Positions 50,644 to 64,000 of a DNA stretch of 64,000 bases are shown piece after piece. The stretch is taken from sequence record MH791409.1; one strand, written 5' to 3'. The notes beneath the pieces were generated by a model, which did no database searches, was not told the origin of the DNA, and was given only the letters and a program-made list of their open reading frames with translations. Source of the stretch: Escherichia phage EcWhh-1. The translations under genes and the position numbers were made by a program. Each line of letters begins with the position of its first letter. The stretch's first letter is position 1.

Positions 50644-51027
50644 TTATTCTAACGTCAGCAAATACTTAGTCTGGTAAAAGACGCCAGTGATATCGTCCAA
50701 AGTCGACTGGATGGCCTTGGGAAGGGTGTCATAGATTTTATCAGTTGCTTTAAGAAGCTCATCAAGGAAATCTACAGGGTCCTTAGGCAAGTCTGAAGCA
50801 GACGGTAATGATGCTTTATATTCTTTGCCACTGAATCCAAGATATTGCTCACTAAATTGGTCCAGAGGTCCTTGAACTTCTACATAATAGAAGTCATACG
50901 CTTTGTGTCTTGCATAGCTTTTGGTTTCTAAATGGGCTGACTTAAAATAGGCTAAAGAAACCAGTAGCCAACCAATATAAGAATCCACTTCAGACCCTCG
51001 ACCGGGTACGAAATCATTGAATTTCAT
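50644..51027 (-). CDS. hypothetical protein, 127 aa
   Basis: Coding-strand ORF. No domain recognised. Confidence 0.55.
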   Translation of the reverse strand: MKFNDFVPGRGSEVDSYIGWLLVSLAYFKSAHLETKSYARHKAYDFYYVEVQGPLDQFSEQYLGFSGKEYKASLPSASDLPKDPVDFLDELLKATDKIYDTLPKAIQSTLDDITGVFYQTKYLLTLE

Positions 51028-51307
51028 CTTCTACCTTCATTAGTTTTGCATAACGCTCTCCGATGGCACGACCTTCAATTGAGCATGCTTCTATAGTCCG
51101 ACAACTTGAATTCTTCCAGGAAGCCGTAACATAGGCCCAATAGTCTTCGGAGGCCTTTACGCTTGGTCTACTCATTTGCGCATAAACAGGCATCGCACTA
51201 CTAGCAAACGCGTCCATCAATTTATCATTGGTATCATTTGCTAGTGAAACTGAAGGGCCTAAACATCCCGCCATAAGGATACAAGCCGCTGTACGGAAAA
51301 TATCCAT
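51014..51307 (-). CDS. predicted lipoprotein, 97 aa
   Basis: MDIFRTAACILMAG|C lipobox. Confidence 0.5.
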   Translation of the reverse strand: MDIFRTAACILMAGCLGPSVSLANDTNDKLMDAFASSAMPVYAQMSRPSVKASEDYWAYVTASWKNSSCRTIEACSIEGRAIGERYAKLMKVEDEIQ

Positions 51308-56203: not shown

Positions 56204-56503
56204 TTAGAAAGAACCAGAACCTTTAATTGTGTTCTGACGACCTTTATTTTCTAATTCAGAGTGGTCGATTTCATATGCTTGTGCTACGCCAAAGGCCTTT
56301 TTAACTTTAGCTAAAGAACCTTTAGATGTAACAATATTAAAAGTATTACCTTTGGTAAAATCAACCAAATCGACTTGTACACCCTGTTTACCAAGGCTTG
56401 CTACAATAGCGTCAACATATTCTTGGTCTAAAGTGCCTTGGACTCCAATTTGAAATGCTTTAGGGGCTTTGGCTTCTGTAATAAATTCTTGATAAGTTTT
56501 CAT
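56204..56503 (-). CDS. head internal protein with capsid-targeting sequence
   Basis: 99 aa. N-terminus MKTYQEFITE|A equals the T4 IP capsid-targeting and gp21-cleavage consensus. The remainder is unlike T4 IPII/IPIII. Confidence 0.7.
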   Translation of the reverse strand: MKTYQEFITEAKAPKAFQIGVQGTLDQEYVDAIVASLGKQGVQVDLVDFTKGNTFNIVTSKGSLAKVKKAFGVAQAYEIDHSELENKGRQNTIKGSGSF

Positions 56504-57019: not shown

Positions 57020-57418
57020 TTATTTGTAAGTTTTCATCCAATTCTTAAACAAAGCTGCGACGTCTTTCTCTTTAACGTTCAATTTAACGTCCAGCATTTT
57101 GCCACCAGCGGCACGTGTCTGACGAATCTTAGCCGTACCGGTTTCGCCATTCCACTCAACATAATACTGTCCGGTGTTCATAGCGATACCATCGCCATAG
57201 TCTTCGTTCTTAGAAGTAGTGAATGCTAACTTCATGGTCTTAGAGACACGGGCCTGCATGCCTGTCTGCAGAGCGTTACGAACGCGAATAACCTGAGGAG
57301 TGGCCTGGGTAAGGTTCTCATTCAGTTCTTCAGTGAACTCTTCGGATTCAAACATCGCCAAAAGTTCTTTAGATGCAGGAATTACATTCTCTGCGATAAA
57401 TTCATTATAAGTTTTCAT
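57020..57418 (-). CDS. head internal protein with capsid-targeting sequence
   Basis: 132 aa. N-terminus [10 protein letters not shown]|N. Lies just downstream of e, as ipIII does in T4. Confidence 0.7.
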
Positions 57419-57929: not shown

Positions 57930-58379
57930 TCAAAAGAGCGAATCTAAAACCTTAAACATCGACGGACCCATGACATATTCCCATTGAGGACGTTTAATCA
58001 AGGCGAACGCATCGAATTCAGGAACCGTGCGACCATCAGGGAACGTATGGTAAGCGGTACATTTGCAATCCTTGAACTGCTCGTGTTCCACAGGCACAGT
58101 ATATAAGAACAGATGTAGATTCTTATTGCTTGAATATTTGAACTCACCTAGGTCTTTCAGGAACGCAGGATCGTATGCTGTGAATCCGATCTCTTCTTCG
58201 GTTTCACGCATTGCCGCTTGAATAGGCTCTTCGCCCGGTTCGACATGGCCTTTAGGAATGTCCCATTTATGACGCATGTTCTCTGGATTACGAGAGCCTG
58301 TTACACGACCCATAACTAGTTCTTTATCAACGGTCATGAATAAAATACCGGCAGATAATTCTTTCGCTTTCTTACTCAT
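57930..58379 (-). CDS. nudE: Nudix hydrolase
   Basis: Start at ATG 58379 (MSKKAKE). Nudix box GHVEPGEEPIQAAMRETEEEIG. Lies at the T4 e.1 position. Confidence 0.85.
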   Translation of the reverse strand: MSKKAKELSAGILFMTVDKELVMGRVTGSRNPENMRHKWDIPKGHVEPGEEPIQAAMRETEEEIGFTAYDPAFLKDLGEFKYSSNKNLHLFLYTVPVEHEQFKDCKCTAYHTFPDGRTVPEFDAFALIKRPQWEYVMGPSMFKVLDSLF

Positions 58380-58608
58380 CGTCTCGTTCCCATGATTGTT
58401 TAAAGATATCTCGTATAATAATTTCAACACATGTTTCTGTTGACGGACTTTCACTATCAGATATTTGGACCATATAATCAGAAATAGGTCGGAACATATC
58501 CAAGTCGCTTTCTAAATCTTCTTTGATTTTCTCTTCTGATGTTCCGGTGTCATAGGAATACAGATAAGAATCACATGACTCGGATTTAATATAAATTGCA
58601 ATACTCAT
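58372..58608 (-). CDS. hypothetical acidic protein, 78 aa
   Basis: ATGA overlap with the upstream gene. Confidence 0.5.
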   Translation of the reverse strand: MSIAIYIKSESCDSYLYSYDTGTSEEKIKEDLESDLDMFRPISDYMVQISDSESPSTETCVEIIIRDIFKQSWERDDE

Positions 58609-59892: not shown

Positions 59893-60105
59893 TTACTTTT
59901 TGTTGAAAAAGTACATTTTACCTTTAGGGGACAAGGATACACGAAGTGCATTACCAATACCAACTGAACATTTAACCAGGTCAGCAGATTTCAATTCACC
60001 AAATGCTTGACGAAGGTCTCCATCACGAGTGTTAACCATCAGGCATTTAGCACCAGCTGCACGAACTTCGTTTAACATGTTGATTGCTTGATTAGAAAGT
60101 TTCAT
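59893..60105 (-). CDS. hypothetical protein, 70 aa
   Basis: Start moved to ATG 60105 (GGAG SD). The longer track ORF runs through its own promoter. Confidence 0.5.
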   Translation of the reverse strand: MKLSNQAINMLNEVRAAGAKCLMVNTRDGDLRQAFGELKSADLVKCSVGIGNALRVSLSPKGKMYFFNKK

Positions 60106-60142
60106 TTTATTCTCCATTTCACTCTGTTGTTTTGATAGGTCT

Positions 60143-60171
60143 ATAGTATCACACCTATAGACCTTGTAAAC
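60143..60171 (-). promoter_or_regulatory. early-type promoter
   Basis: GTTTAC (60171-60166), 17 nt, TACTAT (60148-60143). Confidence 0.6.
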
Positions 60172-60183
60172 AATTTTATGCAA

Positions 60184-61143
60184 TTATTTTTCGAAAGGAC
60201 GAATTAAATGATGGTTATCTTGGAATCGTTTGATGTAGTCACTTTCACCTAAAGTCTTGTACATATTAACCACAGCTTGGTAGTTTTCCCATGCATAAGT
60301 GCGGAACCAACCTGAAGTGATTGAGGTACACACTTTCTCAAGAGCCATATAGAAACTTAATGATGGTGAAATATTGAAGTCATTAGGAACCTGTGAACGT
60401 TCTAGTGCCAGGACACAAGTTTCTTCATATACACCAGCCAGTTTAATAGCTTCAGGCAAAGCCTCGAACTTCTCACGAGAGGTCATGACTTCAGAACCTT
60501 CCTTCATATAAAAGGTATATGCAGGGCGCCCTGCCAATGCCACTGCTTCATGGATAGAGTCGTGGTCTAGCGTATAAATGGTATCGTTAAAGAACGATGA
60601 TTTGTTTACATCCAATTTAGGGTGCTTGTAGCTCAACGTTTCTTTTTGACGTTGCAGCATAATTTCCTGGAGTTCTTCGTTCAGGGTGATACCTTTATTA
60701 CGAAGGTATTTGATGTGGGACATAGTTTTCAGGAAGAAAGGATTATTCTTCAGGAAACGATGAGAGGTTTTGATAGCCAGACAGATATCAGGCGTGGCCC
60801 AATAAAAGCCTGTCATACGGTCCTTTTTAATATGATTTTCAGCATATTTTAGGAGACGATAACTTGAGGTGAAATCTTCGTCTTGAAGCTCACCGGTGAT
60901 TTCTCGTACGTTAGTCAGAGCACGAACGATATATGCTTCAAAATAGGTTTCTTTACCGTTGTACATGCATTTAAAAGCCTGGACATCAGGGTTATCCACA
61001 GGAACATGGGCGCCGAACATCCGAGCTTTAAAGTGGTTCCATGAGCCTTGGTCGGCAATGAAATCCCAATCAGAATTTTCGATATACTTACTTTCAATCA
61101 GACCAGCGTGGTGCAGTGCACGAGAACCAATAACTAACATCAT
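60184..61143 (-). CDS. hypothetical protein, 319 aa (possible pol-beta-like NTase N-terminus)
   Basis: N-terminal VIGSRAL...NSDWDFI loosely fits the G-S...D-x-D pattern. Otherwise unrecognised. Confidence 0.5.
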   Translation of the reverse strand: MMLVIGSRALHHAGLIESKYIENSDWDFIADQGSWNHFKARMFGAHVPVDNPDVQAFKCMYNGKETYFEAYIVRALTNVREITGELQDEDFTSSYRLLKYAENHIKKDRMTGFYWATPDICLAIKTSHRFLKNNPFFLKTMSHIKYLRNKGITLNEELQEIMLQRQKETLSYKHPKLDVNKSSFFNDTIYTLDHDSIHEAVALAGRPAYTFYMKEGSEVMTSREKFEALPEAIKLAGVYEETCVLALERSQVPNDFNISPSLSFYMALEKVCTSITSGWFRTYAWENYQAVVNMYKTLGESDYIKRFQDNHHLIRPFEK

Positions 61144-61156
61144 AATATTTTCCTCA

Positions 61157-61324
61157 TTAGTAGAGACGAGTTACTTCATATTTACCTAGTTCAGATTTTT
61201 TTGCTTCAACACGCGTGGCAGCGAGATTAGCGGCCTCTAGTGAAGAAAATTGAAGCACTTGTGAAGTATTCTGCCTTACGCCACCTTGTGGGTGAGTAAC
61301 AAAAACAATAAGAACATTATACAT
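61157..61324 (-). CDS. hypothetical small protein, 55 aa
   Basis: Below cutoff. GAGGAAAATATT-ATG leader identical to that of the next gene. MYNVLIVFVTHPQGGVRQNTSQ... Confidence 0.5.
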   Translation of the reverse strand: MYNVLIVFVTHPQGGVRQNTSQVLQFSSLEAANLAATRVEAKKSELGKYEVTRLY

Positions 61325-61345
61325 AATATTTTCCTCAGAGTAAAC

Positions 61346-61585
61346 TTAAATTTCGGCAACGTAAGTATTATGCAATTCCCACATATCATCGGAATTACTC
61401 TCAACGATAGGAATTATCTCATTAGAAATTTCTTCTGCATAAGGGTCATTGATACAGTGGGCATCTTCAAAACGAACACCGTAATCAGACTTCTTATAGG
61501 CAAAGCCATAAATCTTTTTAAACTTGGCACGAGTAATGCGTACCGGTTCATTAGACTTATCGGACATCGGAGCGTAATACCACAT
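61346..61585 (-). CDS. hypothetical protein, 79 aa
   Basis: GAGGAG SD. A promoter-like element lies upstream (TACTAT 61618-61613, ATGTAC 61642-61637). Confidence 0.5.
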   Translation of the reverse strand: MWYYAPMSDKSNEPVRITRAKFKKIYGFAYKKSDYGVRFEDAHCINDPYAEEISNEIIPIVESNSDDMWELHNTYVAEI

Positions 61586-61628
61586 ATGTTCTCCTCATGT
61601 TTGTGTAGGGTAATAGTAACACGTATTT

Positions 61629-61958
61629 TTAGAGTTGTACATCACTTCTGCAATATTCTAAAAATAATTTATCGTTGTCTACCGTATCCCAACGACGCCA
61701 AGATGGATTCCAGACCAGAGCGTTGTCACCACAATCATTGAGCTTAAAATGGTCGTAGTACATAGCTATACGTCTAGTTTCGTCACCAGAGAACCCCAGT
61801 ATAGGCTCACCATGGGTGTGATACATATGATGGTGCATTGAGAGGTCGCATTTGTAAAACATCTCACGTTTACCACGAACGAACAAGAAGGCTTGCCCAT
61901 TCATATAGAATTCTTTGTCTGTTTTCAAAAGATATTTGAATACCGAATCTTTATGCAT
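61629..61958 (-). CDS. hypothetical His-rich protein, 109 aa
   Basis: Start moved to ATG 61958 (AGGAGG SD). Confidence 0.5.
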   Translation of the reverse strand: MHKDSVFKYLLKTDKEFYMNGQAFLFVRGKREMFYKCDLSMHHHMYHTHGEPILGFSGDETRRIAMYYDHFKLNDCGDNALVWNPSWRRWDTVDNDKLFLEYCRSDVQL

Positions 61959-61988
61959 AAATCCTCCTACCACATCCATGTGGTTAAA

Positions 61989-62216
61989 TTATTTTCCTAA
62001 CGAAACACGAGTAGGTTTTTTACCAAAATAGTCTTCGTAAGAACCATCTAAACGACCTGCTTTAGACCGACAATACGAATCATACTTTTTGTAATAAGTC
62101 ATCTCAGTATTATAACGTGGGTGTCTATCGGCCATAATAATACTTAGTGGCCAACCTTTGGCATAATCGCGAAGACCGTTTATTTTACGAATGTATCGTT
62201 TTTTCAATTTTAGCAT
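61989..62216 (-). CDS. hypothetical basic protein, 75 aa
   Basis: Coding-strand ORF that overlaps the upstream family member by 7 nt. Confidence 0.5.
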   Translation of the reverse strand: MLKLKKRYIRKINGLRDYAKGWPLSIIMADRHPRYNTEMTYYKKYDSYCRSKAGRLDGSYEDYFGKKPTRVSLGK

Positions 62217-62434
62217 GAGCTTGGGTACCAGATTTCACCATCGGCACGAGCAACGAAGGTGCGACCAGCTTCTTCACCATAACAAGAGCTATTCAGCCAA
62301 TCTTCGAGACGAACTTCACCGTCATAATCGTCGAGCTCAACACCAAAATCCTGAGCAGAAGCCATATCTTTTACTTTCTTATACAGTGCAGCCAGTTCAA
62401 GTGCCGCTTTTTCTAATTCATTAATAGTAGTCAT
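62210..62434 (-). CDS. W-x-S-S-C C-terminal-motif family member 1 (74 aa)
   Basis: Start at ATG 62434 (TAA-GGTGATAAAA-ATG). Ends GEIWYPSSC*. Acidic. Confidence 0.6.
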   Translation of the reverse strand: MTTINELEKAALELAALYKKVKDMASAQDFGVELDDYDGEVRLEDWLNSSCYGEEAGRTFVARADGEIWYPSSC

Positions 62435-62444
62435 TTTTATCACC

Positions 62445-62654
62445 TTAGCAAGACATAGAGGAGCTAAACCAGAAACCTTCACCTTCAGGAATACCGTAAT
62501 CATCACGGACCCATTCGTAATCATCATATTCCGGACTAGAAGCTGGAATATATTCTTCGCCACCAGCGTGGAAGTGCTGACCTGTTTCGTCAGCCACGGA
62601 CTGGCCTTTACGTACTAATTCACGGATTTGTTTTTCAATTTCATCAATAGTCAT
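62445..62654 (-). CDS. W-x-S-S-S-x-x-C family member 2 (69 aa)
   Basis: Ends GFWFSSSMSC*. TAAGGAAATAAA-ATG junction. Confidence 0.6.
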   Translation of the reverse strand: MTIDEIEKQIRELVRKGQSVADETGQHFHAGGEEYIPASSPEYDDYEWVRDDYGIPEGEGFWFSSSMSC

Positions 62655-62663
62655 TTTATTTCC

Positions 62664-62861
62664 TTAGCATTCGTAAGAGGAGGACACCCAGGAGCCACCT
62701 GTAATTGTAATACAGCCATTGTAAATCGTGATATGACGGTCCAGATGGTTTTCACCATCGATATAGATATCAGCTTCTTCGCGTTCTTCTTTACAAATCT
62801 GGATAACGTTTTCAATAGCTGCGGCTGCAGTACGGATTGCACAATCTAGTTCACGAGACAT
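62664..62861 (-). CDS. W-x-S-S-S-x-x-C family member 3 (65 aa)
   Basis: Ends GSWVSSSYEC*. TAAGGAATTATT-ATG junction. Confidence 0.6.
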   Translation of the reverse strand: MSRELDCAIRTAAAAIENVIQICKEEREEADIYIDGENHLDRHITIYNGCITITGGSWVSSSYEC

Positions 62862-62870
62862 AATAATTCC

Positions 62871-63152
62871 TTAACATTCAGAAGAAGAGGACACCCAACC
62901 ACCATTTTCTAGGCTGGTAGTGTAATCATGTTGGTTTACAATAGCGTACTGAGCTTCACCGTATTCTTCCCAGTGGGCAAGGTCGGCTTTCAGGGCGCCA
63001 GGAGAATAATAGTCACCGCCCATACCGCGAGCAGGGTATATATTAAAATGAGTCTCATATTTGTTAGCAATTTCCTCAGCACGTCGAATAGCTTTATGGA
63101 TATCATTTACTGCTTTGGCCAGCTCTTTATTTTTACGGTAATCATTCATCAT
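62871..63152 (-). CDS. W-x-S-S-S-x-x-C family member 4 (93 aa)
   Basis: Ends GGWVSSSSEC*. TAAGGAAACACT-ATG junction. Confidence 0.6.
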   Translation of the reverse strand: MMNDYRKNKELAKAVNDIHKAIRRAEEIANKYETHFNIYPARGMGGDYYSPGALKADLAHWEEYGEAQYAIVNQHDYTTSLENGGWVSSSSEC

Positions 63153-63161
63153 AGTGTTTCC

Positions 63162-63452
63162 TTAGCACATTGCTGAAGAGGAGACCCAAGCACCAACTGT
63201 AACGACACCATTTTCAACTTCACCGCCGTTGTTTTCAATTTCATCTTTAAACCACTGGGAGCATTCATAACCGACAGGATAATATGTACGGCCTGAACCA
63301 TAATCACCGGTGCCGAATTGGATACCATACTTATCGGCAATAGCTTCGCATTCATGTTCGATGGCATCTACTTTATTCAGAAGAGCATAGATAGCCTTTT
63401 CTGCAGATTTCTCGTCATTGTGTTCTGGGATTTCAATTTCAATTTTATTCAT
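63162..63452 (-). CDS. W-x-S-S-S-x-x-C family member 5 (96 aa)
   Basis: Ends GAWVSSSAMC*. ATGA overlap with the upstream membrane-protein gene. Confidence 0.6.
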   Translation of the reverse strand: MNKIEIEIPEHNDEKSAEKAIYALLNKVDAIEHECEAIADKYGIQFGTGDYGSGRTYYPVGYECSQWFKDEIENNGGEVENGVVTVGAWVSSSAMC

Positions 63453-63802
63453 GATTTACATTCCTTAATAAAGGTTTCAAGGTCATTACGTTTAGTTTGT
63501 TTTACATACTCATTATAATTAGCCATCTCTAAAGCATATCTCTTACGGATGGGAGCATTCAAAGCATTTGTATGGCAAATATCATACACGAGAGGGATAA
63601 AATAGGCCACAACTGCTGGAGCGATTATCATATAGAAACCCATCTCAATAGGTGTGACTCCTTCGATTACAGCCATAACCACGGTCATTACCAGGCCAAT
63701 TAGGCCACCAAGCATGGCTGTAACAATCCCTAATAATAAATTGGCACCAATATCATATTCAGCCAATTGATAAACATGCGATGAAAGACTAGGCCGTTCC
63801 AT
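63449..63802 (-). CDS. membrane protein, 117 aa
   Basis: Start moved to ATG 63802 (AAAGAGG SD). Three TM segments. Confidence 0.5.
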   Translation of the reverse strand: MERPSLSSHVYQLAEYDIGANLLLGIVTAMLGGLIGLVMTVVMAVIEGVTPIEMGFYMIIAPAVVAYFIPLVYDICHTNALNAPIRKRYALEMANYNEYVKQTKRNDLETFIKECKS

Positions 63803-63989
63803 TTTGAACCTCTTTAGCGTATTCACGGCATTCAGCAATAAAGCGATTAAGCTTCCGTTGTTGTTTACGACTTTCTAATGTGTACTCAGCAGTTAAGATA
63901 CCAAGCTCGGCTTTATCATAATTTTTAATATCAGTGTAAGATGGTCGACGGTCGACCATTCCAAATACATCACCATTTTCTAAAGCCAC
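63789..63989 (-). CDS. hypothetical protein, possibly 5'-truncated by window edge
   Basis: The track start is GTG 63989. The frame stays open to the window end at 64000. Confidence 0.4.
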   Translation of the reverse strand: MALENGDVFGMVDRRPSYTDIKNYDKAELGILTAEYTLESRKQQRKLNRFIAECREYAKEVQNGTA

Positions 63990-64000
63990 ATAGCATACTA

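What the first reader, a model, noticed from the sequence alone, without database searches (positions are those of the whole stretch)
62210..63452. Five tandem small acidic paralogues all ending in G-x-W-[VFY]-[SP]-S-S-x(0,2)-C-COOH
Five consecutive genes (74, 69, 65, 93 and 96 aa) end in EIWYPSSC, GFWFSSSMSC, GSWVSSSYEC, GGWVSSSSEC and GAWVSSSAMC. In each case the Cys is the last residue.

The Ser codons differ between copies (AGC, TCC, TCT, TCA), so selection is acting on the protein rather than on the RNA. Each protein also begins with a ~25-aa amphipathic helix, for example AVNDIHKAIRRAEEIANKY or AIYALLNKVDAIEHECEAIADKY. The genes are joined by stereotyped C-TAA-GGAA...ATG junctions.

I know of no described function for this motif. 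One possibility is a shared recognition or degradation tag. Another is a metal or thiol handle. A third is a substrate motif for Ser/Cys chemistry: Ser-x-x-Cys-COOH resembles the C-termini that form AviCys or lanthionine in RiPPs, although no modifying enzyme is visible here. The proteins could also be a diversified family of decoys against host defences.
Basis: seen in the sequence. Interest (0 to 1): 0.8.

Follow-up and report, generated by a model that had tools for sequence, protein, structure and literature searches.

The report
Cys-tailed phage proteins with partner nucleotidyltransferase
The five small genes are real members of a large, phage-only family of acidic proteins that all end in Trp-x-x-Ser-Ser-x-x-Cys, and this family is almost always encoded just upstream of an uncharacterised nucleotidyltransferase-like enzyme, which points to an undescribed enzyme-plus-tagged-protein module in phages.

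Summary
Five consecutive minus-strand genes (62210-63452) of a T4-like Dhakavirus end in W-x(1,2)-[SP]-S-S-x(0,2)-C-stop. They have Shine-Dalgarno sites and are under purifying selection (dN/dS 0.03-0.31).

They belong to a large uncharacterised family: 386 clusters at 50% identity. Of the top 150 representatives, 137 end in exactly W-x-[SAP]-S-S-x-x-C-COOH. All six Ser codons, both Cys codons and all three stop codons are used.

A ~300-aa protein (window 60184-61143, Pfam DUF7277+DUF7275) lies just downstream on the same strand in 38 of 41 loci found through the small proteins. Conversely, 75 of 80 loci found through the enzyme carry tail genes upstream. No third gene is conserved.

Best reading: the tail is the docking or acceptor peptide for this enzyme. 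Whether the small proteins are substrates or MenA1-like inhibitors is unresolved. No literature on either family was found.

The parts
63162..63452 (-). Tail-family gene 5 (96 aa, pI 4.35), ends GAWVSSSAMC. Core family member.
   Evidence: Family HMM E 6e-21. PHROG 899 E 9e-24. AF2 pLDDT 86, helix 14-42 plus a small sheet.
62871..63152 (-). Tail-family gene 4 (93 aa), ends GGWVSSSSEC. Core family member with an ARGMGGDYYSP motif.
   Evidence: HMM E 6e-23. PHROG 899 E 3e-20.
62664..62861 (-). Tail-bearing gene 3 (65 aa), ends GSWVSSSYEC. Divergent body; only the tail matches the family profile.
   Evidence: PHROG 4882. hhalign against A3 aligns only the last 15 residues, E 4e-5. dN/dS 0.03.
62445..62654 (-). 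Tail-family gene 2 (69 aa), ends GFWFSSSMSC. Core family member.
   Evidence: HMM E 7e-17. PHROG 899 E 2e-13.
62210..62434 (-). Tail-bearing gene 1 (74 aa) with two short-spacer motifs: internal DWLNSSC (62282-62299) and terminal IWYPSSC (62213-62230).
   Evidence: PHROG 899 E 8e-10. No significant match to profile A3.
63165..63188 (-). C-terminal tag W-V-S-S-S-A-M-C of gene 5. The equivalent tags are at 62874-62897, 62667-62690 and 62448-62471.
   Evidence: Family logo: W(-7), S(-4), S(-3) and C(0) are invariant in 137 of 150 representatives.
60184..61143 (-). Partner gene: 319-aa nucleotidyltransferase-fold protein. DUF7277 covers residues 2-101 (60841-61140) and DUF7275 covers residues 120-305 (60229-60786). 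Invariant residues are G6, S7, D25, D27 and E69.

Best explanation
The five genes are an array of tagged partner proteins for the nucleotidyltransferase-fold protein encoded downstream on the same strand (60184-61143). Together they form a two-component, phage-specific module.

Each small acidic protein has an N-terminal helix and usually a small beta-sheet with an AYGMGGTYYP motif. This body displays a short C-terminal peptide, [GE]-G-W-x-[SAP]-S-S-x-x-C-COOH.

I propose that this peptide docks into the active-site cleft of the enzyme, where G6/S7, D25, D27 and E69 would hold NTP-Mg. The two invariant serines would then act as acceptors for a nucleotidyl group, or possibly a phosphoryl group. 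Trp and the terminal Cys with its carboxylate would act as anchors. The divergent bodies of the 1-5 paralogues per phage would give one enzyme several differently targeted products.

Shown here: the family, the invariance of the tag, selection at the protein level, the bidirectional gene linkage, the enzyme's fold and catalytic-residue pattern, and its restriction to phages.

Inferred: physical interaction through the tail, Ser as acceptor, and any downstream role. My confidence that the small proteins and the enzyme work together is about 0.8. That the tail is the contact element, about 0.55. That it is a covalently modified substrate rather than an inhibitor, about 0.35.
For: 1. The tag is the only feature shared by all five window proteins and by 239 distinct tail proteins on many divergent bodies. 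Of these, 160 hit the core HMM and 79 do not.
2. W(-7), S(-4), S(-3) and C(0) are invariant in 137 of the top 150 of 386 clusters at 50% identity. All Ser and Cys codons and all stops are used.
3. Linkage holds in both directions. In 38 of 41 loci found through the small protein, the enzyme lies at most ~1.6 kb downstream on the same strand; the other 3 are contigs that end before it. In 75 of 80 loci found through the enzyme, tail ORFs lie upstream on the same strand, and none occurs elsewhere in those 10-kb loci. A Logan contig confirms this independently.
4. No third gene is conserved.
6. The enzymes with this fold that I know of transfer NMP to hydroxyl groups. MenT-family toxins also become phosphorylated on an active-site Ser (PMC10435456; abstract of PMC11375011).
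7. Multi-copy arrays (0-5 tail ORFs per locus by motif count, up to 6 in L035 by HMM) with one enzyme fit several substrates better than one regulator.
8. A distant clade of the enzyme abuts a different small-protein family, again in tandem copies.
Against: There is no direct evidence of interaction or modification, and a complex prediction could not be run. The enzyme is not basic (pI ~6.2-6.5), so simple charge complementarity with the acidic partners is not evident.

The spacer between S-S and C varies from 0 to 2 residues, and 8 of 150 members carry one residue after the Cys. The geometry is therefore not rigid, and the free Cys carboxylate is not absolutely required.

Ten of 103 distinct enzymes have no tail ORF within 4.5 kb.

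The closest structural relative, MenT1, is inhibited rather than served by a short protein encoded upstream. Partner swapping between enzyme clades is also typical of toxin-antitoxin modules. Both points favour the inhibitor rival.
Confidence: 0.4

Rival explanations
1. Toxin-antitoxin-like regulation. The NTase is a MenT/AbiEii-like effector, for example one that extends the 3' ends of host tRNAs to shut off host translation. The small acidic proteins would be non-covalent inhibitors or timers that plug its active site with the tail, as the 68-aa MenA1 does for MenT1.
Against: Up to 5-6 divergent paralogues sit beside one enzyme. The tail residues are chemically invariant over very wide phage diversity, whereas pure binding interfaces usually drift. 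There is no sequence membership in DUF1814 or any PADLOC model. The module is in lytic phages and essentially absent from bacterial genomes. Some enzymes lack any tail gene nearby.
Confidence: 0.25
2. RiPP-like Ser/Cys chemistry. The NTase would activate a tail serine as Ser-O-NMP. Elimination would give dehydroalanine, and the terminal Cys would add to it, forming a lanthionine-type ring. This would be a new route to a thioether-capped protein or a released peptide.
For: S(-3)-x-x-C(0) has the i/i+3 spacing that I recall from lanthionine and AviCys rings (own knowledge). Several precursor-like genes precede one enzyme. The enzyme's C-terminal helical domain has many invariant His, Asp, Cys and Lys residues of unknown role.
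Against: No dehydratase, lyase, LanC-like cyclase, HFCD decarboxylase, protease or exporter domains occur in the enzyme or in neighbours across 40 enzyme clusters. The body is predicted to be folded (pLDDT 86) rather than a disordered leader. The S-S to C spacing varies from 0 to 2. C243 and C272 of the enzyme are not universal in tail-linked enzymes. No NTase-driven dehydration is known to me.
Confidence: 0.08
3. The small proteins are targeting or specificity subunits. Each body would bind a different host or phage molecule, and the common tail would recruit the NTase to it, so that the enzyme modifies the bound target rather than the tail.
For: Divergent bodies carry a common tail. There are arrays of 1-5 copies. 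A second, unrelated small-protein family forms arrays next to distant enzymes.
Against: There is no evidence for any target. The strict chemical identity of S-S and C is not needed for a simple docking peptide.
Confidence: 0.1
4. The tag works independently of the neighbouring enzyme, for example as a thiol or metal handle, a degron, an oligomerisation element or a packaging signal. Under this reading the gene linkage reflects only shared early expression.
For: No interaction has been shown. The window array is separated from the enzyme by four unrelated small genes. Most members have a single Cys, which could act in an intermolecular thiol or metal site.
Against: The linkage holds in both directions across phages from 60 kb to 370 kb with otherwise unrelated neighbourhoods. 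That is hard to explain by co-expression alone.
Confidence: 0.12

Closest known systems
MenAT1 (MenA1-MenT1) and the AbiE/MenT DUF1814 nucleotidyltransferase toxin-antitoxin systems
   Different: There is no sequence match to DUF1814, PADLOC or NCBIfam models. The enzyme has an extra ~190-residue helical DUF7275 domain. It occurs in lytic phages and is essentially absent from bacterial genomes. The partners are unrelated to MenA1-4, come in arrays of 1-6, and are defined by an invariant C-terminal W-x-x-S-S-x-x-C tag.
Antibiotic nucleotidyltransferases ANT(2'') and LnuA
   Different: There is no detectable sequence relationship. The phage context and protein partners differ. Nothing suggests an antibiotic substrate, although one GenBank record labels a homologue 'putative antibiotic resistance protein'.
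Type VII toxin-antitoxin logic (an enzyme chemically modifies its partner, e.g. MntA AMPylating HepT, or phosphorylation of MenT3 Ser78)
   Same: The proposed mechanism is the same in outline: an NTase-fold enzyme acts covalently on a residue of the protein encoded next to it.
   Different: The partner is not a HEPN protein. The acceptor would be a C-terminal Ser-Ser peptide rather than a Tyr or an active-site Ser. There are multiple partners, and the setting is a phage. Nothing about this has been shown experimentally.
RiPP precursor arrays with one modifying enzyme (e.g. prochlorosin ProcA/ProcM) and RiPP-derived products with a conserved C-terminal core (mycofactocin MftA, PQQ PqqA)
   Same: Several small paralogous genes precede one enzyme. 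A short, conserved C-terminal Ser/Cys-containing core is the most constrained part.
   Different: No known RiPP enzyme domains are present. The body is predicted to be folded and is 65-175 aa long. No protease or exporter is present. The comparison rests on my own knowledge of these systems.
PHROG 899 / PHROG 4882 (small proteins) and PHROG 2141, Pfam DUF7277 + DUF7275 (enzyme)
   Same: The window proteins are members of these catalogued families.
   Different: All are listed as 'unknown function'. I found neither the tag nor the gene linkage described in any paper of the searchable library.

Membership tests
W-x-x-S-S-x-x-C tail family (PHROG 899 and relatives) | C-terminal [GE]-G-W-x-[SAP]-S-S-x(0,2)-C at or within one residue of the C-terminus | tested here: met
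   All five window proteins have it. 137 of 150 family representatives end in exactly W-x-[SAP]-S-S-x-x-C, and 8 more carry one extra residue.
W-x-x-S-S-x-x-C tail family (PHROG 899 and relatives) | N-terminal helix ...EAExIADExGxxF followed by [AS]YGMGG[TS]Y | tested here: inconclusive
   This is met by the 93-, 96- and 69-aa proteins (HMM E 1e-17 to 1e-23). The 74-aa protein hits PHROG 899 only. The 65-aa protein lacks it.
W-x-x-S-S-x-x-C tail family (PHROG 899 and relatives) | Encoded upstream of, and on the same strand as, a DUF7277-DUF7275 gene | tested here: met
   The window enzyme is at 60184-61143, 1.07 kb downstream. The same holds in 38 of 41 and 75 of 80 loci.
Pol-beta-superfamily nucleotidyltransferase (enzyme 60184-61143) | hG[GS]...Dh[DE]h motif plus a third acidic residue on a later strand | tested here: met
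   G6, S7, D25, D27 and E69 are invariant in 37 diverse homologues and in almost all of the 125 locus enzymes; a few have conservative D/E or G/S exchanges, or Ile at the third acidic position. The S7-D25 spacing is 17 residues, slightly longer than the 9-13 I recall as canonical.
Pol-beta-superfamily nucleotidyltransferase (enzyme 60184-61143) | NTase alpha/beta core fold | tested here: met
Pol-beta-superfamily nucleotidyltransferase (enzyme 60184-61143) | Nucleotidyl transfer activity | not testable with these tools
   This needs biochemistry.
AbiEii/MenT (DUF1814) toxin-antitoxin system | Sequence membership in DUF1814 / AbiEii models | tested here: not met
   No PF08843 hit at E<=1. No PADLOC or NCBIfam hit.
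AbiEii/MenT (DUF1814) toxin-antitoxin system | Cognate antitoxin (MenA1-4 / AbiEi type) encoded upstream | tested here: inconclusive
   Small genes are encoded upstream, but they match no Pfam, NCBIfam, PADLOC or PDB-sequence family, so nothing relates them to MazE-like MenA1 or to wHTH-kinase antitoxins. They are also multi-copy.
AbiEii/MenT (DUF1814) toxin-antitoxin system | Resident in bacterial or archaeal genomes as a defence or TA locus | tested here: not met
   Only 4 hits, all MAG contigs, in 185,579 species genomes (pattern-based scan), against 733 phage records.
AbiEii/MenT (DUF1814) toxin-antitoxin system | Growth inhibition and tRNA 3'-end extension | not testable with these tools
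   This needs toxicity assays and tRNA sequencing.
Lanthipeptide / AviCys-type RiPP cluster | Ser/Thr dehydratase (LanB, LanM, LanKC/L, or kinase plus HopA1 lyase) and LanC-like cyclase | tested here: not met
   No such Pfam domains occur in the enzyme, the window neighbours, or 117 neighbours from 40 enzyme clusters.
Lanthipeptide / AviCys-type RiPP cluster | HFCD (LanD) decarboxylase for a C-terminal Cys | tested here: not met
   None was found among the neighbours.
Lanthipeptide / AviCys-type RiPP cluster | Short precursor with a leader and a Ser/Cys core, often in several copies next to the enzyme | tested here: inconclusive
   The gene arrangement and the S-x-x-C core fit. However, the body is predicted to be folded, and it is the tail that is conserved and the body that varies.
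Lanthipeptide / AviCys-type RiPP cluster | Mass shift of the mature product (-18, -46 Da) | not testable with these tools
   This needs mass spectrometry.

The most novel reading that the evidence does not exclude
Phages of many lineages carry a previously unrecognised protein-tagging system. A dedicated MenT/ANT-fold nucleotidyltransferase would covalently nucleotidylylate the invariant Ser-Ser of a portable C-terminal W-x-x-S-S-x-x-C tag, or activate it for further Ser/Cys chemistry. The tag is carried by arrays of small acidic effector proteins. This would make a new class of virus-encoded post-translational modification with its own recognition tag.
Probability: 0.3. Interest if true: 0.9.

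Novelty: new variant of a known kind. Interest (0 to 1): 0.78.

Why it matters
Both gene families are abundant in phages and have no assigned function. The small family has at least 386 clusters at 50% identity. The enzyme has at least 1,921 clusters at 90% identity and occurs in 733 of 50,697 phage genome records. These include T4-like, rV5-like, jumbo, Pseudomonas, Acinetobacter and Aeromonas phages used in therapy collections.

Linking the two families, and pinpointing an eight-residue tag with two invariant serines and a terminal cysteine, turns two 'hypothetical protein' families into one testable enzyme-partner hypothesis. Clear point mutants follow from it: D25A/D27A in the enzyme, and W, S-S or C to Ala in the tail.

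If the tail is modified, this is a new phage post-translational chemistry and a portable tag. If the small proteins are inhibitors, it is a phage-borne MenT-like effector with an unusual multi-copy regulator set. Either way it bears on how large lytic phages take over, or protect, host translation and nucleic-acid metabolism.

Tried and rejected
- **Family databases, small proteins:** Pfam, NCBIfam, PADLOC and PDB sequence searches gave nothing significant.
- **Profile too divergent:** The search for related loci with the broad alignment A3 failed because it had no conserved 7-mer. A narrower alignment, A4, worked.
- **Enzyme cysteines:** I tested whether C243 and C272 co-vary with the partners' terminal Cys. 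C243 is often Y or M in tail-linked enzymes. C272 is replaced by A or S in four tail-linked loci. The only tail-less enzymes that lack C272 belong to one distant clade. The correlation is too weak to use.
- **Third conserved gene:** All-against-all clustering and a Pfam scan of 117 flanking proteins from 40 enzyme clusters found none. The neighbours are generic early and DNA-metabolism genes (DnaB, NUDIX, ligase).
- **DNA or RNA-level explanation:** I considered that the terminal TGY-TAA-GGA reflects a translational-coupling constraint. I rejected this because the stop codon, the Cys and Ser codons, and the downstream bases all vary across 214 distinct gene ends.
- **Sixth motif match:** The match at 51101-51118 is an internal chance match in an unrelated protein with a signal-peptide-like N-terminus.
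- **Literature:** Searches for the DUF and PHROG names, the motif strings and phage NTase terms found nothing relevant.
- **Promoters:** There is no late-promoter TATAAATA in 60000-64000. One MotA-box-like site lies at 63538, upstream of the array. The sigma-70 and terminator scans were not above the shuffled background.
Full report
**Setting**

The window matches T4-like phages of the JS98/IME08 group (Dhakavirus, with Gaprivervirus close by) at 87-96% identity over 61900-63900. The region lies in the variable early-gene stretch between lysozyme e/nudE and the e.4-like membrane protein and tRNA genes. All genes here are on the minus strand.

**Check of the observation**

Five consecutive minus-strand ORFs end in the motif:
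- 63162-63452 (96 aa) ends in GAWVSSSAMC.
- 62871-63152 (93 aa) ends in GGWVSSSSEC.
- 62664-62861 (65 aa) ends in GSWVSSSYEC.
- 62445-62654 (69 aa) ends in GFWFSSSMSC.
- 62210-62434 (74 aa) ends in EIWYPSSC.

Each is followed by TAA. Of 644 six-frame ORFs of at least 40 aa in the window, only these five end in the motif. The 74-aa protein has a second, internal copy (DWLNSSC).

Each gene has TAAGG(A/T) 6-9 nt before its ATG, and the Ser codons differ between copies. Against the orthologues in Shigella phage SP18, dN/dS is 0.10, 0.31, 0.03, 0.17 and 0.20. These are therefore real, constrained protein-coding genes. All five are acidic (pI 4.2-5.5).

An AF2 model of the 96-aa protein has mean pLDDT 86. 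It shows a long helix (residues 14-42) packed against a small beta-sheet. The strand A-W-V-S is followed by a short terminal turn carrying S-S-A-M-C.

**The family**

Four of the five hit PHROG 899 and the 65-aa protein hits PHROG 4882; both are 'unknown function'. There are no Pfam, NCBIfam, PADLOC or PDB sequence matches.

A profile search of 1.84 billion cluster representatives found 386 clusters at E<=1e-3. Among the top 150:
- 137 end in exactly W-x-[SAP]-S-S-x-x-C-COOH, with W(-7), S(-4), S(-3) and C(0) invariant.
- 8 more carry one extra residue after the Cys.
- 134 have a [YWF]GxGG (AYGMGGTYYP) motif.
- The mean net charge is -7.6.
- 86 have a single Cys.

Across 214 distinct gene ends, all six Ser codons, both Cys codons and all three stops are used, and the bases after the stop are not conserved. 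Selection therefore acts on the peptide. The TAAGGAA junction is a local T4-like feature.

The tail sits on many divergent bodies. Of 239 distinct tail proteins, 160 hit the core HMM and 79 do not. In the window, the 65-aa protein shares only its last ~15 residues with the profile. Some members repeat W-x-S-S-x-C inside the acidic linker. The spacer between S-S and C ranges from 0 to 2 residues.

I fetched 39 viral loci through the small protein. They come from contigs of 60 kb up to 370-kb jumbo phages. I then clustered all flanking ORFs. One cluster besides the family itself was shared by 38 of 41 loci: a ~300-320-aa protein just downstream on the same strand. The three loci without it are contigs that end too early.

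In the window this gene is 60184-61143. Four small ORFs specific to Dhakavirus and Gaprivervirus separate it from the array.

The reverse test used 80 loci fetched through this protein. Of these, 75 have at least one tail-ending ORF upstream on the same strand within 3.5 kb, and no such ORF lies anywhere else in those loci. An independent Logan contig shows the same pair 84 nt apart.

Per distinct enzyme there are 0 to 5 tail ORFs (counts 10, 24, 26, 14, 10 and 19 for 0-5 copies). The median gap between the last tail gene and the enzyme is 285 nt. L035 has six family members by HMM.

No third component is conserved. Flanking genes across 40 enzyme clusters are generic early and DNA-metabolism genes.

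**What the partner is**

It is Pfam DUF7277 (residues 2-101) plus DUF7275 (residues 120-305) and PHROG 2141, all of unknown function. At least 1,921 clusters of homologues exist. Almost all are named 'hypothetical'; one source name, 'prohead assembly scaffold protein', looks like a mis-annotation.

Thirty-seven diverse homologues share invariant G6, S7, D25, D27 and E69. That is the Pol-beta nucleotidyltransferase pattern. They also share many invariant Lys, His, Asp and Arg residues in the helical domain, within IK.SHR, Y.HP, YDHDSIHE, CVLALERS and KVCTSITSGWFR.

It is thus a minimal-NTase-fold protein with an intact catalytic pattern. It is not a sequence member of DUF1814, PADLOC or NCBIfam families.

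It occurs in 733 of 50,697 phage records. These include T4-like phages of enterobacteria, Aeromonas, Acinetobacter and Vibrio, as well as Phapecoctavirus, Pseudomonas and Stenotrophomonas phages, jumbo phages and actinophages. In contrast, a pattern-based scan found it in only 4 MAG contigs among 185,579 species genomes.

A distant clade has no Cys-tail genes. It comprises Gordonia phage Smoothie gp16, Streptomyces phage TunaTartare gp209 and Vibrio phage nt-1 ORF301. These enzymes directly abut a different small-protein family, again in one or two tandem copies.

**Mechanism**

Shown:
- a portable, chemically invariant C-terminal tag;
- a phage-specific NTase-fold partner;
- tight linkage in both directions;
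- only two components.

Inferred: the tail is the element that meets the enzyme. The known enzymes with this fold transfer NMP to hydroxyl groups. MenT-type enzymes also become phosphorylated on an active-site serine.

I therefore favour the reading that the two invariant serines are acceptors, with Trp and the terminal Cys as anchors, and that the varied bodies give one enzyme several products.

The main rival is a MenA1-like inhibitor role. MenT1, the best structural match, is blocked by a 68-aa protein encoded upstream, and partner swapping between clades is typical of toxin-antitoxin modules. Against this rival stand the multi-copy arrays and the chemical invariance of the tail.

The RiPP-like thioether idea keeps a small probability. 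The S-x-x-C spacing and the gene arrangement fit it. However, no known RiPP enzyme domains are present, the body is predicted to be folded, and the spacing varies.

**Novelty**

The families are catalogued only as DUFs and PHROGs. I found no paper on the tag, the linkage or either family.

I rate this a new variant of a known kind, namely an NTase plus a small adjacent partner. I give about a 0.3 chance that it is a new protein-tagging or post-translational modification system.

Noticed in passing
window 58372-58608 (-): A 78-aa very acidic ORF (pI 4.05, ends SWERDDE) clusters with ORFs that sit immediately upstream of the Cys-tail genes in jumbo-phage loci L002, L003, L005, L010 and L015, and directly downstream of the enzyme in L026. 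It may be a loosely linked third component.
   Followed up: partly
L125:4390-5300, L126:4133-4811, L127:3205-3501: Distant DUF7275 enzymes in Gordonia, Streptomyces and Vibrio phages lack Cys-tail genes. They abut a different small-protein family (...RYFRxNGxYxSYxGxxYDGxxEEVxPxxKTITVY) in 1-2 tandem copies (alignment A6). In TunaTartare the enzyme follows an RNA ligase, and in Smoothie it lies next to a tRNA cluster.
   Followed up: partly
window 61157-62216 (-): Four small ORFs (55, 79, 116 and 75 aa; PHROGs 20278, 3723, 9796 and 7065, all of unknown function) separate the array from the enzyme. Among the loci examined they cluster only with Shigella phage SP18 (L001). In most other phages the tail genes lie 12-650 nt from the enzyme.
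   Followed up: partly
window 56204-56503 and 57020-57418 (-): Two ORFs begin MKTYQEFITEA and [11 protein letters not shown]. From my own knowledge, this resembles the capsid-targeting sequence of T4 internal proteins (IPII/IPIII type). They flank denV and e.
   Followed up: no
window 51014-51307 (-), motif at 51101-51118: A 97-aa ORF with a signal-peptide or lipoprotein-like N-terminus (MDIFRTAACILMAGCLG) contains an internal SWKNSSC. I judge this a chance match to the tail motif.
   Followed up: yes
P0041 / RB69ORF139c (UniProt Q7Y506): A 71-aa member (P0041...GEIVSQWYEK) is a truncated version of the 101-aa P0030 type and lacks the whole tail. The 71-aa RB69ORF139c looks like the same kind of truncation. 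These appear to be natural tail-less alleles.
   Followed up: no
L128:1643-2071: In a Logan contig the gene right after the enzyme is a YqeY-like protein (PF09424; as I recall, a GatB/YqeY-type domain thought to be tRNA-related). It was seen once among 117 neighbours scanned.
   Followed up: partly
window 63449-63838 (-): The 129-aa ORF just upstream of the array, overlapping its first gene by 4 nt, looks like a multi-pass membrane protein from its sequence (PHROG 2330, unknown function). It clusters only with ORFs in L001 and L008.
   Followed up: no
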